A stretch of 63,404 nucleotides of DNA, filler included, from Octopus bimaculoides (taxonomy: Eukaryota): NCBI RefSeq assembly GCF_001194135.2. It is 4 parts of 4 records of this genome, joined end to end, with 100 filler letters (N's around TTAATTAATTAA, not from the genome) between each part and the next. Parts side by side here need not be neighbours in the genome. Positions count along the whole stretch, not along the records: positions 1 to 27,869 come from NC_068983.1; positions 27,970 to 54,300 come from NC_068981.1; 2 more parts are not named here. The stretch is one strand, 5' to 3'. The position numbers were made by a program, and so were the translations under genes. The notes under the pieces were generated by a model. It had not been told where the DNA came from. It worked only from the letters and a program-made list of their open reading frames with translations, and did not search any database. Each line of letters opens with the position of its first letter. The stretch's first letter is position 1. Of this stretch, positions 6,396 through 43,056 are shown in pieces.

Positions 6396-6912
6396 TGTGT
6401 CCGATTAGTATTTGAGAAGGGAAATCATCGTTCCCCTCTCTAGCCTTATGTTCCAATCGGTCACAGACAATGTGTCGTTAGCCAGCTGGAAGAGATGTCC
6501 TCCTGAGGCTATAAACAACAGTAGCATCGTCACCTATGGGTTCGCCACATATAGATGGTAAATATACTTCACGATTCCGTGCTGCTACTCTTTACATCTC
6601 GCTCAGAGATTTATTATTGCTTGTTTCTCCTTTTTCGAGATCAGCGATAGTTTGTCACTGGGAAAAGCATATAACATTTTGCGTTTGGAATGAGTTGTCA
6701 TCGCTAGCTGGTGGGTGATTGTCACACGCTGATGACGGGTTACTACCCAGAAACCCGGGTCCGTGTGCATCACGTCAGGCTAGAGATGGGAACGATGATT
6801 TTTTTTCGCAATACTAATCGGACACAGACAGTGTGTCGTTAGCCACCTGGAGATGTCCACCTGTGGCTATAAACAACAGTAACATTATCCCCTATGGATC
6901 CGCCACATTTAG
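6396..6912 (+). mobile_element. Non-coding HHR-bearing element (361-bp unit in partial tandem, with 5' inversion)
   Basis: Direct repeat 6455-6554 / 6816-6912; inverted repeat 6396-6446 / 6777-6826; intact HHR between them; no ORF. Confidence 0.75.
6715..6773 (+). ncRNA. Type I hammerhead ribozyme, intact core
   Basis: cacacg CTGATGA C GGGT tact ACCC A GAAA CCCGGG TC cgtgtg. 6-bp stem I, 4-bp stem II, palindromic stem III (ACCCGGGT), GUC site at 6759-6761, distal stem gtgat/atcac. Confidence 0.88.
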
Positions 6913-6956
6913 GTCGCAAATATACTATATATATATGTGTGTGTGTATGTGTGTTG

Positions 6957-6988
<32 letters not shown>

Positions 6989-7016
6989 CTGTCTGTCTGT
7001 CTGTATGTATATATAA

Positions 7017-7170
7017 ATAGGCGCAGGCGTGGCTGTATGGTAAGAAGCTTGCTTCTCAACCACATGGCTCCGGGTTCAATCCCACTGAGTGCACCTTAGG
7101 CTCTACCATAGCCTCGAGCCGACATAAGACTTGTCAGTGGATTTGGTAGACGAAAACTGAAAGAAGCCCG
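7017..7170 (+). mobile_element. SINE family B, 5' half
   Basis: Same head as 3164, followed by (TCTG)n/(TATG)n. Confidence 0.8.
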
Positions 7171-7176
7171 CGTGCG

Positions 7177-7210
<34 letters not shown>

Positions 7211-8007
7211 CCTGTCTGTCTGTCTGTCTGTATGTATGTATGTATGTATGTATGCATGCATGCATGCATGTATGTATGTATGTATGTATGTATAAGTACA
7301 CTGGGTTCTTTACCAAAAGATTTACCTAACAGCCTAGAAATGTTGAGGTTTTCCAGAATAAACAAGACTGTATGTATATATATNNNNNNNNNNNNNNNNN
7401 NNNNNNNNNNNNNNNNNNNNNNNNNNNNNNNNNNNNNNNNNNNNNNNNNNNNNNNNNNNNNNNNNNNNNNNNNNNNNNNNNNNNNNNNNNNNNNNNNNNN
7501 NNNNNNNNNNNNNNNNNNNNNNNNNNNNNNNNNNNNNNNNNNNNNNNNNNNNNNNNNNNNNNNNNNNNNNNNNNNNNNNNNNNNNNNNNNNNNNNNNNNN
7601 NNNNNNNNNNNNNNNNNNNNNNNNNNNNNNNNNNNNNNNNNNNNNNNNNNNNNNNNNNNNNNNNNNNNNNNNNNNNNNNNNNNNNNNNNNNNNNNNNNNN
7701 NNNNNNNNNNNNNNNNNNNNNNNNNNNNNNNNNNNNNNNNNNNNNNNNNNNNNNNNNNNNNNNNNNNNNNNNNNNNNNNNNNNNNNNNNNNNNNNNNNNN
7801 NNNNNNNNNNNNNNNNNNNNNNNNNNNNNNNNNNNNNNNNNNNNNNNNNNNNNNNNNNNNNNNNNNNNNNNNNNNNNNNNNNNNNNNNNNNNNNNNNNNN
7901 NNNNNNNNNNNNNNNNNNNNNNNNNNNNNNNNNNNNNNNNNNNNNNNNNNNNNNNNNNNNNNNNNNNNNNNNNNNNNNNNNNNNNNNNNNNNNNNNNNNN
8001 NNNNNNC

Positions 8008-39252: not shown

Positions 39253-39420
39253 CTTTTCTACTCTAGGCAGAAGGCCCCCAATTTTTTTTTTTGGGGGGGT
39301 GGCAGTCGATTAGATCGACTCCACTCCGGAACTAGTACTTAATTTATCGACCTCGAAAGGATGAATGGTAAAGTCGACCTCGGCGAACTTTGAACTCAGA
39401 ACGTAGTGACAGACGAAAGA
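39253..39420 (-). mobile_element. SINE family C
   Basis: Reverse complement of the family C body and tail. Confidence 0.8.
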
Positions 39421-41868
39421 TCCAATCGTATATTAATTTCACTATTAATTCTGAGGGGTATTACAATCCGCTTGTGTATCAGACTTATACGATAGGTTTT
39501 CCATCAGACATCTTACGTTTGCTACACTCCACACCACAGCTTACCAAGAATTAGGAATTACTAAGTAGTTTTTTTAGTTGCGTTATAAAAATTTTCTCAA
39601 TTCAGTTACAACAGAATTCGATAAATGGCTGACACGCTGATGTATCGAATTAACAGTCTTCGATGTTTTTTTCTCTTTATGCATCACCTCTCTTCCAATT
39701 TATGCTGATATTGTAAAGTACGTTTTTAAGTATTAAAAATGTCTTTTATATTTCGAGTTTCAGTTTAGTGAGGAATGTTTACTAACAAATGGATTCTAGA
39801 TCTTCCTTTTCAGGCAGTCGTCTGAGACGTAGGCCCTCGCCACTCTTTGCTCGACACTTTGTTTTATATTTTGCTGATGTTTTCATTGAAAAATATTATT
39901 GTAGTCTTTCATTATAGCTGTTATGAAAATAACCACAGCATCGGATTGATAAAATCATTGAAGTGCCGGTAACTATACATTATGGTATTTGTTCAAAGCT
40001 TGTTTTCATTTAAAAGATGAAGAATGATATTATTTAATATTATTTTTCTCTTTTGCAATTTGATAACATAAAAAGACAAAGCAATATCGTCCTATAACTA
40101 GGTATACTCCCTGAATACTCTGATTGCCAATCCCATAATAGTGAAGATTGCCTATCTTATCCCGGAAATTAATAAGCGATGTACAAGTCAAATAATGATG
40201 TCTATTCACCCTTCAATTCTTCTTCCCACGAAATAAGAAGACGTATAGTATAGTTGGAAATCATTACCCAGAGAAATAATTGGAGATCCATTTTAATAAG
40301 AAGTCAAATATGTATTGATTTCTACTCAACAGAATTAGAAGAGCGTTTCAGAGTTTCTTTTTCGACTTGAACGTCTCCTACACTTTGAAATTTATTCAGT
40401 CGTACACCATTTTCTGAATTAATTGCGTGAAGATATACATTTCCCTCTTCTGAAAGTAACTGCACGGAAAACGATAATTTGCCAAATTATAACATACACG
40501 TTGAAGGCATACGAGATTGCATTTAGATGATACTGTTTTGGAAACGAACTTGGCATATAAAACAGGAAGATATTAAGTACATGCTGGTACTTAAAGCAAA
40601 AAAAAAACAAAAAGCAGTTTAGCAGGAATGGCTACAATTATTGGCATCTTTTTTGAAATCCTTCCAAGGTATTTCACTCCGGTATTTCACTTGAAGAGGT
40701 TACGTTTTAGTCCGAGGAATATATATTAGGAGACAAGAAATATTTCTTACAACTGAAAATCGATAGTTTATATCATATATTACGTTTGAATAATCAATTT
40801 ATCTTCCGATTTGATTCCGTCGATTTCGAGGGAAATATTTTTGTAATGCCAAAGGGTGTATTTAATGCAAAAATTGAGTTATATTAGGACTTTCATTAAG
40901 GAAAAAAGCAAAAACGAAAACGCTTTTTAAATTTACAGATTCAAAAGAAAAAAAGATAACGAAATAAATATGTTAATGAAAAACATGTAACATGATAATC
41001 CATAGAAATCAAAGATCCCTAAGGAAACAATCTTTGTTGACAATCTGAATATTTTACATCTTAAGCCAACATTTTTTCCCTTTTAAAGAGAATGTTATCG
41101 CCTCGAGCTGACATGCATGGTTGTCATGGAAAATACATGCAGTTGAAAACTTTATAAAGATACGAAAGAGAAGGATTTAAAGAAAAATCTCTAAACCTGT
41201 TGCAGCATACAGTGTATATGAATTATAGATATAGACAGATATCTATATTATGTTGAAACTGCACTGATGTTTTATGACAGATTTTGTTTTGTTAACGTTT
41301 ATAACATTTTATGTATCTTGCTACTACTGCAAACATTCCATATTTATATCCGTTTTAAATCCATTGAAAAATGAAAGAAAACCTGGAGGTGTTAGCATGA
41401 AATTTAAACAAAAATTCTCACTAATGTTTGAAAGAAACAACCCGAGTATGATAAAAGTCTATGTAAGTCTTCAAAATTTTGCATTTTTCTGAAAACGTAT
41501 CTTGATATTATTTGCTACATGTTATCAGCTTTTCGTCTAATCTAATATCTTGAAGCTAGTTGAGGCTGTCTAGAAGTTCGATAAATATCAAGTTTAGCAT
41601 GAGAGTTTTCCTATTACTTTCTGTTTGGAAAATATAGAAGTTGAATTAATTAACATCGCATGAGATAATGTTTGCTTGCAGAGTGTTAAAAATACTGTTT
41701 AAACTGATACGATGAAGTCATGTATTATGGTTAAATATTAACCTGAGATATTAATGCAAAATATTTATTTTATGTAAAAGAATGGGGAAAACAAAGAACA
41801 AGGATATGTATATATTTATTTTAAAAATATAATGTTTTAAACATGTCTCAAGTGGTAAACATAATTAC

Positions 41869-42021
41869 CACCGACTGGAAATTTTAAGATCTTCGTAATA
41901 AGCACAGGCAAAAATTGTCCTATGTATTTTCCCACTTCCTTAATTTCAAATTTAGGATTCTCATCACGACAAGTATTATGTAAAAACAATTGATTATCTT
42001 CGTTGTTTGTAGAAGCTTCAG
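41869..42021 (-). CDS. Candidate internal exon (153 nt, phase 1-1) of an unidentified gene
   Basis: Acceptor gattccctttgtAG, donor gtg/GTaatt, stop-free frame EASTNNEDNQLFLHNTCRDENPKFEIKEVGKYIGQFLPVLITKILKFPVG; no homolog recognised. Confidence 0.35.
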
Positions 42022-42715
42022 CTACAAAGGGAATCACGGACGTTAAAAATGTTATATTAGGTATATTTTGCCGGTTATTTTTTAAGCCATATTAGCCTTA
42101 ATACGTCCAACCATTGATCAAAGGTACTCTAGGGAATACTACCTCCTCTTCATATATATATATATATATANNNNNNNNNNNNNNNNNNNNNNNNNNNNNN
42201 NNNNNNNNNNNNNNNNNNNNNNNNNNNNNNNNNNNNNNNNNNNNNNNNNNNNNNNNNNNNNNNNNNNNNNNNNNNNNNNNNNNNNNNNNNNNNNNNNNNN
42301 NNNNNNNNNNNNNNNNNNNNNNNNNNNNNNNNNNNNNNNNNNNNNNNNNNNNNNNNNNNNNNNNNNNNNNNNNNNNNNNNNNNNNNNNNNNNNNNNNNNN
42401 NNNNNNNNNNNNNNNNNNNNNNNNNNNNNNNNNNNNNNNNNNNNNNNNNNNNNNNNNNNNNNNNNNNNNNNNNNNATAAGGAGAGAAACAAGGAGAGAAG
42501 AAAATATGTGTAGTGGTCAAATACCTCAGAGATTTATGCATTAGTGATGCGATAAAGTAGTTGTATGCTGTCAACTTAATGTGACAGTCCCATCAAGGGA
42601 ATAATACTACTGCTATTTAGCCCTAGGAAGCAGCACCACTTCCTGTCGGTCTTGACACATTTCCTGTGTCCTTATGTTTACAAGGGGGAGACAAGCACCT
42701 CCACCCAGCTAAGCC

Positions 42716-42768
42716 TGCATCCAGAGACATGTTTCTGAGTCTTTGCTCGTCATCAGTTTGGAGTAGCA
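42716..42768 (-). ncRNA. Type I hammerhead ribozyme, intact core
   Basis: Minus strand: tccaaa CTGATGA C GAG caaaga CTC A GAAA CATG TC tctgga. Palindromic stem III (ACATGT), GUC site, one stem I mismatch. Confidence 0.8.
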
Positions 42769-43003
42769 ATGGCCTGCTAGCTGGAGGTGCATGTCAAGCT
42801 CTTGTAAACATTTAATAATGTTTACATTGCCTGTGTCACATTACGTTGACAGCATACAACTACTTCATCGTATCACTACTGCATAAATCTATCTGAGAGA
42901 TTTAGAAATGTATTATTTCTATTTTTGAAATCAGTGAATGTGTTTCACTAGAATTATTATATGTTAACAAGAGCTTGACAGGCATCTCCAACTAGCAGGC
43001 CAT

Positions 43004-43056
43004 TGCTACTCCAGAGTAATGACGAGAAAAGACTCAGAAACATGTCTCTGGATGCA
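43004..43056 (+). ncRNA. Hammerhead, sister copy with mutated core
   Basis: tccaga GTAATGA C GAG aaaaga CTC A GAAA CATG TC tctgga. Perfect stem I, but CTGATGA->GTAATGA. Confidence 0.7.

What the first reader, a model, noticed from the sequence alone, without database searches (positions are those of the whole stretch)
6715..43056. Two unrelated repeat families share the same non-canonical hammerhead fold
The HHR at 6715-6773 and the pair at 42716-42768 / 43004-43056 have no sequence similarity outside the core. Seen in sequence, they share four features. (1) CUGAUGA-C...A-GAAA, a C.A mismatch where the canonical HHR has the G10.1-C11.1 pair closing stem II. (2) A self-complementary stem III (ACCCGGGU vs ACAUGU) with a GUC site. 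(3) A 6-bp proximal stem I. (4) A 3x1 internal loop (UGU/C vs UAC/U) followed by a distal stem. Established: PLE-associated type I HHRs often have palindromic stem III and can work as dimers, and loop II-stem I bulge contacts stabilise natural HHRs. Inference: the same structure with different sequence suggests a selected, possibly undescribed HHR subclass in mobile elements of this lineage.
Basis: partly seen in the sequence, partly recalled or inferred. Interest (0 to 1): 0.8.

Follow-up and report, generated by a model that had tools for sequence, protein, structure and literature searches.

The report
Mismatch-core hammerhead ribozyme in animal retrozyme
Three copies of one abundant, likely mobile ~355-base repeat in an animal genome carry a likely self-cutting hammerhead RNA motif with a C-A mismatch where the usual G-C pair sits; the two "unrelated" repeats are relatives, but the same mismatch design also occurs in phage sequences and the standard RNA-family library misses it.

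Summary
The three hammerhead (HHR) motifs are real, but the headline is wrong. The repeats at 6447-6926 and 42519-43218 are diverged subfamilies of one ~355-nt unit (58-60% identity end to end; flanks alone beat 1000 of 1000 shuffles), so the shared fold is inherited, not convergent. The palindromic stem III, 6-bp stem I and loop 1 are standard type I features. The copy at 43004 has a damaged core, and the one at 42716 has a stem I mismatch.

The C.A opposition holds up. Reads and contigs of family B restore the core and show paired stem I changes, and neither C.A position is among the 40 differences shown (177 hidden). In phage contigs the same design, A.A or C.A always followed by G-C, is frequent: 38 of 42 folded hits in one scan that required G-C at the next step, 17 of 36 in an unconstrained scan, 0 of 22 without that G. 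A model built only from those microbial motifs ranks the three window sites first; Rfam finds none. Best reading: a non-LTR retrozyme (Penelope-derived) with an under-described natural core variant, likely cutting as a dimer. Cleavage is untested.

The parts
6715..6773 (+). HHR-A, type I layout, intact core, C(6736).A(6749) followed by G-C; predicted cut between 6761 and 6762; stem I extends beyond these coordinates in the folded unit
   Evidence: 24.1 bits, E 8.5e-6, model R1
6447..6926 (+). Subfamily A repeat: partial tandem of a ~361-nt unit (6455-6568 repeats at 6816-6926, 84% identical), no ORF of 100 aa, flanked by CA/TG microsatellite
6387..6446 (-). Inverted truncated fragment of the same unit (reverse complement of 6777-6836, 85%) at the 5' end of element A
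42716..42768 (-). HHR-B(-): intact core, C(42749).A(42736) followed by G-C, 6-nt loop II, palindromic stem III, one A.C mismatch in stem I; predicted cut between 42726 and 42725
   Evidence: 17.8 bits, E 0.0016
43004..43056 (+). HHR-B(+): 6/6 stem I and C(43023).A(43036), but core damaged at 43016 and 43018, so likely inactive; family reads carry the canonical core letters
   Evidence: 12.3 bits, E 0.15
42834..43218 (+). Subfamily B repeat: one 352-nt unit plus the start of a second (42834-42865 = 43186-43217); folds as a strongly self-paired circle (z -5.8)
42519..42819 (-). Inverted, circularly permuted copy of unit B (94% to 42953-43218, continuing through the unit junction); the contig piece is bounded by N gaps

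Best explanation
The three motifs belong to two diverged subfamilies of one non-coding ~355-nt repeat, likely a Penelope-derived non-LTR retrozyme, whose type I hammerhead carries an inherited C.A mismatch followed by a G-C pair at the base of stem II and is predicted to self-cleave after GUC, likely as a dimer. Shown: homology, repeat anatomy, family-level core, paired stem changes, presence in RNA-seq reads, and recurrence of A.A/C.A plus G-C in phage HHRs. Inferred: transcripts through tandem units pair the palindromic stem III regions of two HHRs, cleave to unit length, circularise, and are reverse-transcribed and inserted by Penelope RT/GIY-YIG proteins in trans, giving partial tandems with inverted truncated heads. 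Inferred for the core: M.A (M = A or C) fills the 10.1/11.1 slot as a non-canonical pair stacked on the sheared A9.G12, and the obligatory G-C one step out takes over the stabilising role. The 14-nt stem II region equals the canonical 4+6+4 length, so loop 1/loop 2 geometry would be kept.
For: Homology of A and B outside the HHR. Periods 361 and 352 with inverted heads, matching 150-450-bp retrozyme repeats (PMC7229834) and PLE insertion layout (PMC8557442). About 4,900 contigs laid in each of two DNA runs, with a tandem joint going back 352 in both RNA and DNA. Core restored in 144/147 and 112/116 (43016) and 145/147 and 113/116 (43018) RNA reads. Stem I partners change at matching rates in RNA reads: 43015 A>G 68/147 and 68/116 with 43047 T>C 98/191 and 94/153; 43011 C>T 67/152 and 70/116 with 43051 G>A 102/202 and 86/152. 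Positions 43023 and 43036 are not among the 40 listed differences. Circular fold z -5.8 for B. Phage HHRs: A.A 31, C.A 7, G-C 4 among 42 folded of 68 (G-C forced at the next step); 17 of 17 M.A loci have G-C next in the unconstrained scan, while the next pair varies in G-C HHRs; 0 of 22 M.A hits fold without the G. The microbial-only model finds the three window sites first.
Against: No cleavage shown: no pile-up of read ends in either RNA run, and first mates fall on both strands equally. 75-78% of RNA reads run on into unlike sequence, so many may come from copies inside other transcripts. 177 difference rows were hidden, so minor G-C variants cannot be excluded. Phase of the stem I changes is not shown, and in DNA contigs the partner frequencies match poorly (15% vs 66% and 27% vs 49% in X1; 7% vs 26% and 10% vs 20% in X2). 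Family A rests on one copy, and its unit folds only weakly (z -1.9). The monomer MFE of HHR-A is a non-hammerhead fold (-23.5 vs -13.3 kcal/mol) in which C10.1 and the stem II strand pair with the stem III strand. Neither locus has two intact HHRs in tandem. Phage hits were selected by pattern and stem filters, which inflates pairing counts.
Confidence: 0.7

Rival explanations
1. Same element, different core register: the G-C pair is the true G10.1-C11.1, and C and A are two unpaired insertions (after A9 and before G12) that bulge out, extending the known single insertion of PLE minimal HHRs.
For: G-C is obligatory next to M.A. PLE HHR consensus has an H nucleotide between 9 and 10.1 (PMC4209133). 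One of 56 rows in that paper's Fig. S3 has AGAAA; by row order it is the Cotesia bracovirus PLE. Excluding G and U at M could reflect avoidance of mispairing.
Against: Stem II region length is 14 nt in both subfamilies, equal to the canonical length rather than +2. Phage M.A regions are mostly 10-12 nt against 12-13 for G-C forms. The 3' partner is always A.
Confidence: 0.35
2. The repeats are solo pseudo-LTRs or 3' remnants of a coding Penelope-like element, not an independently amplifying retrozyme.
For: Inverted truncated heads and partial tandems are PLE hallmarks. PLE RT and GIY-YIG remnants lie elsewhere in the window (below Pfam cut-offs). Locus B is bounded by gaps.
Against: No ORF adjoins either element. 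The unit joins head to tail to itself in DNA and RNA. The HHR has canonical rather than minimal geometry. The nearby PLE remnants carry a different, minimal-type HHR.
Confidence: 0.2
3. C.A is an inactivating or strongly weakening founder mutation, and the family spreads without cleavage.
For: G10.1-C11.1 is described as the most conserved pair after A15.1-U16.1 (PMC3088659). Both B copies in the window are damaged. No cleavage ends were seen.
Against: Core letters are 97-99% conserved in family reads, stems change in pairs within B and between A and B, and the design recurs in phage HHRs with paired stem changes.
Confidence: 0.1
4. One reading: two unrelated repeat families converged on the same non-canonical fold.
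For: The HHR stems share little sequence, and blastn of the window against itself did not link A and B.
Against: Collinear similarity on both sides of the HHR, 0 of 1000 shuffles in each of four flank-only tests, with similar unit lengths.
Confidence: 0.03

Closest known systems
Metazoan non-LTR retrozymes with canonical type I HHRs (Cervera and de la Pena 2020, PMC7229834; Li et al. preprint 10.64898/2026.07.22.740005)
   Same: Non-coding ~350-nt unit (mussel 350-390, axolotl 330-350), one type I HHR per unit, tandem joints, self-paired circular fold, co-occurrence with PLEs.
   Different: C.A at the base of helix II; only partial tandems here; circular RNA not shown. Axolotl HHR_Amex2 has a U.U mismatch at that place, not C.A.
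Rfam Hammerhead_1 (RF00163), HH9 (RF02275), clan CL00010
   Same: 6-bp stem I, 14-nt stem II region with a 6-nt loop one letter off the Rfam consensus loop in B, short palindromic stem III, same core (consensus seen).
   Different: First stem II pair is C.A; no hammerhead hit at E up to 10 at A or B(-) in local scans, and none among the 150 listed rows of the whole-window scan.
Minimal HHRs of Penelope-like elements (Cervera and de la Pena 2014, PMC4209133)
   Same: An extra nucleotide after A9 followed by G-C; palindromic stem III; association with PLE-type insertions.
   Different: There the extra nucleotide is one-sided (55 of 56 rows have plain GAAA), helix II is long and helix I short. 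Here both sides carry an extra base and helix I/loop 1 are canonical.
Natural core variants of phage and bacterial HHRs (Perreault et al. 2011, PMC3088659)
   Same: A natural mismatch at 10.1/11.1 is tolerated (U.U reported; U.U also seen here in 3 of 36 folded loci).
   Different: A.A/C.A with obligatory adjacent G-C is not mentioned in the section and passages read.

Membership tests
Hammerhead ribozyme class, type I | Core CUGANGA, GAAA and NUH cleavage triplet | tested here: met
   A and B(-) intact; B(+) damaged but family reads 97-99% canonical
Hammerhead ribozyme class, type I | Three-way junction with open stem I supported by paired changes | tested here: met
   5 of 9 stem I/II pairs differ on both sides between A and B(+), none broken; matching-frequency stem I changes in RNA reads, phase not shown
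Hammerhead ribozyme class, type I | Site-specific self-cleavage | not testable with these tools
   No read-end pile-up; these libraries are not made to show it
Rfam Hammerhead_1 (RF00163), canonical type I | G-C pair directly after A9 and before G12 | tested here: not met
   C.A in all three copies; G-C lies one step out
Rfam Hammerhead_1 (RF00163), canonical type I | Score at the gathering threshold (34 bits) | tested here: not met
   No hit at A or B(-) nor among the 150 listed rows; M.A phage HHRs reach at most 26.5 bits to HH9, while two G-C relatives pass RF00163. Not filed under this family.
Rfam Hammerhead_1 (RF00163), canonical type I | Loop 1/loop 2 tertiary contact | tested here: inconclusive
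   3x1 loop at 6 bp and 14-nt stem II region present; loop II of B resembles the Rfam consensus; loops of A differ; no 3D test
Non-LTR retrozymes | 150-450-bp non-coding unit with one type I HHR, repeated head to tail | tested here: met
   Periods 361 and 352, no ORF of 100 aa, tandem joint in DNA and RNA
Non-LTR retrozymes | Highly self-paired unit | tested here: inconclusive
   B z -5.8, A z -1.9, 60 shuffles each; reverse strands similar (-4.4, -2.2)
Non-LTR retrozymes | Unit-length linear and circular RNAs in vivo | not testable with these tools
   Reads are present (903 and 883 laid), but a circle and a tandem transcript give the same joint
Autonomous Penelope-like element | RT plus GIY-YIG ORF between pLTRs | tested here: not met
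   None adjoining either locus; B is bounded by gaps

The most novel reading that the evidence does not exclude
M.A plus G-C (A.A or C.A stacked on A9.G12 and locked by an obligatory G-C) is a second, undescribed, fully active architecture of the hammerhead core. It arose independently in phages and in an animal retrozyme family with thousands of copies, and descriptor and Rfam searches miss it, so HHR and retrozyme censuses undercount whole families.
Probability: 0.45. Interest if true: 0.7.

Novelty: new variant of a known kind. Interest (0 to 1): 0.5.

Why it matters
The 10.1/11.1 pair is treated as nearly invariant and is built into search models. A rule-bound natural alternative (A or C opposite an invariant A, always followed by G-C) would revise the core consensus, offer a direct test of what the G10.1 position contributes to folding and metal binding, and expose retrozyme families that current searches miss. 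The element type itself (retrozyme with a type I HHR) is known, and the claimed convergence within this genome is not real, which caps the score.

Tried and rejected
No whole genome is held, so no genome-wide family alignment was possible. Rfam scans gave no HHR hit at the sites. Window self-blastn missed the A-B homology; Smith-Waterman with shuffles found it. Run search: no RNA holder listed on record; unlaid small shares were not used. Only one read lay was available and it went to family B, so family A has no population data. A looser A.A scan was mostly chance: 5 of 115 new loci folded. For alignment A2, 11 of 43 candidate M.A motifs were dropped by hand (mis-located coordinates, a near-duplicate, long or doubtful ones). 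Literature: nine searches ran and none listed a paper describing C.A or A.A at 10.1/11.1, or octopus HHRs. Lunse et al. 2017 and Weinberg et al. 2015 are not held. The Cervera 2020 supplement was unreadable. The Perreault dataset text held no sequences and one .doc file could not be read. The bioRxiv supplements are closed. Any of these could already list the variant. The pairwise-mutagenesis paper PMC9901934 (passages) and PMC13725137 (passages) gave nothing on this pair. PMC5785226 was an unrelated paper. Convergence of A and B was rejected.
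Full report
Setting. The window is an AT-rich, gap-ridden, microsatellite-rich stretch of an animal genome with SINE-like repeats and transposon remnants. A cephalopod origin is my recalled impression from the repeats and comes from no call. No whole genome is held.

Observation. HHR-A (6715-6773, +) is as described: distal stem, 3x1 loop, six stem I pairs, intact core at 6729-6735, C6736 opposite A6749 with four pairs beyond, a self-complementary 8-mer at 6753-6760 and a GUC site. 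HHR-B(-) (42716-42768) has the same core and C.A, three further pairs, a 6-nt loop and a 6-nt palindrome, but one A.C mismatch in stem I. HHR-B(+) (43004-43056) has a perfect stem I but two changes in the CUGA box. The C.A core pattern occurs twice in the window and never in 100 shuffles. Rfam gives no hammerhead hit at A or B(-) at E up to 10 in local scans, and none among the 150 listed of 195 rows of the whole-window scan.

The two families are one. Element A is a partial tandem of a 361-nt unit headed by an inverted fragment (6387-6446). Element B is a 352-nt unit plus the start of a second, headed by an inverted, permuted copy. With the HHRs excluded, A and B align upstream (61/89 identical) and downstream (39/55, 64/99, 68/103), each above all 1000 dinucleotide shuffles. 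Whole units are 58-60% identical and collinear. The shared fold is therefore inherited. The 6-bp helix I, interacting loops and short palindromic helix III are the canonical metazoan type I layout (PMC4209133, first two of four parts of the main text read), and the stem II region is 14 nt in both subfamilies, as in the Rfam Hammerhead_1 consensus. Only the C.A is unusual.

Is C.A selected? Between A and B(+), 4 of 6 stem I pairs and 1 of the 3 stem II pairs beyond C.A differ on both sides, none is broken, and C.A and the G-C next to it are unchanged (read). Unit B was found in 20 of 24 listed runs from 9 studies. Four runs were laid on 42834-43218 at 80% likeness: 903 and 883 RNA reads, and 4,897 and 4,835 contigs. 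The two damaged core positions read canonical in 144/147 and 112/116, and in 145/147 and 113/116 RNA reads, and in about 97-99% of contig depth. Stem I partners vary at matching rates in both RNA runs (43015/43047: 46%/51% and 59%/61%; 43011/43051: 44%/50% and 60%/57%). Phase is not shown, and contig-depth frequencies match poorly. Positions 43023 and 43036 are absent from the 40 differences shown, so C.A appears to be the majority state; 177 rows were hidden, so a minority with G-C is not excluded. A joint going back 352 nt occurs in RNA (15 and 16 reads) and in DNA, so tandems exist, but circles cannot be told from them. No place shows many read ends, both strands are read equally, and about three quarters of the RNA reads run on into unlike sequence. 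Independent expression and cleavage are thus not shown.

The variant elsewhere. With 10.1/11.1 left free but G-C required at the next step, 42 of 68 loci folded: A.A 31, C.A 7, G-C 4. In a scan with no constraint on stem II, 36 of 107 folded: G-C 15, A.A 12, C.A 5, U.U 3, G.U 1; all 17 M.A loci have G-C next, whereas 13 distinct G-C forms vary at that step (3/3/4/3). With M.A but no G next, 0 of 22 folded. In 32 hand-picked motifs (of 43 candidates), 8 of 12 pairs change on both sides, above all 500 shuffles, though selection on stems inflates this. A covariance model built only from these microbial motifs ranks the three window sites first (24.1, 17.8 and 12.3 bits; rough E 8.5e-6, 0.0016, 0.15; next hit 8.7 bits). 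Rfam scores the M.A phage motifs below threshold, while two G-C relatives pass RF00163. Two earlier AI notes describe the phage A.A form; they are leads, and my scans checked only the mismatch.

Mechanism. Shown: anatomy, homology, family core, recurrence. Inferred from retrozyme biology (PMC7229834, parts 2 and 3 of 6 and passages read; preprint 10.64898/2026.07.22.740005, part 1 and passages): tandem transcripts cleave after GUC, probably through the palindromic stem III pairing between two HHRs (duplex -14.9 kcal/mol for A and -4.6 for B), then circularise and are mobilised by PLE proteins. The inverted heads fit PLE insertions (PMC8557442, passages). Unit B folds as a stable circle (z -5.8) and unit A weakly (z -1.9). 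The monomer MFE of HHR-A is a competing non-hammerhead fold. For the core, A9.G12 is a sheared pair followed by G10.1-C11.1 in a solved structure (PMC11300833, one passage). I propose that M.A is a second non-canonical pair in that stack. From recall, not from a call: A.A and C.A are isosteric as trans Hoogsteen/sugar-edge pairs, and N7 at 10.1 binds a metal, which A keeps and C loses. The rival is two bulged insertions around an unmoved G-C.

Known versus new. The element works like a non-LTR retrozyme and meets the sequence criteria I could test. The ribozyme works like a type I hammerhead but fails RF00163 membership on the 10.1/11.1 pair and on score. Precedents: natural U.U at this place (PMC3088659, section 8, passages and two supplementary figures; axolotl Amex2), the one-sided insertion in PLE HHRs, and one row of 56 with AGAAA in Fig. 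S3 of PMC4209133, by row order the Cotesia bracovirus PLE. Compensatory changes at 10.1/11.1 are reported in cave crickets (PMC2837043, passages). Nine searches listed no description of the A.A/C.A plus G-C rule, but Lunse 2017, Weinberg 2015 and several supplements could not be read. PMC6765202, PMC10085705, PMC6155905, PMC9901934 and PMC13725137 were seen as passages only.

Verdict. New variant of a known kind, interest 0.5.

Noticed in passing
window 20351-20426 (-): A further HHR-like motif with canonical G-C at the base of stem II, a long loop II and an imperfect stem I (Rfam Hammerhead_3 22.5 bits, E 0.007), lying between 161-nt direct repeats 475 nt apart (20028-20188 and 20503-20663); possibly a second retrozyme family.
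   Followed up: partly
window 34309-34345 (-) and 36384-36417 (+): Decayed minimal-type PLE hammerheads (intact first box, extra A, G-rich stem II, damaged GAAA box) just 3' of the ORF remnants of an inverted PLE pair spanning 34304-36422.
   Followed up: partly
window 15352-16146 (+): 264-codon frame ending in a GIY-YIG-like domain (E 0.002, below cut-off), likely another Penelope-like remnant.
   Followed up: partly
L001, L012, L031 and L057 (viral and metagenome loci): Several microbial C.A hammerheads lie among tRNA genes; conserved flanks in the phage family suggest a pseudoknot frame.
   Followed up: no
window 43004, loose read ends: 92 and 53 RNA reads join a different upstream sequence at the HHR's 5' edge, indicating at least a third subfamily that shares the B-type ribozyme.
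   Followed up: no
window 942-1686 (+) and 61166-61576 (+): DDE (mariner-like) transposase remnants.
   Followed up: partly
window 52408-52482 (+): tRNA-like Rfam hit at 32.4 bits, above the gathering score; possibly a SINE head.
   Followed up: no
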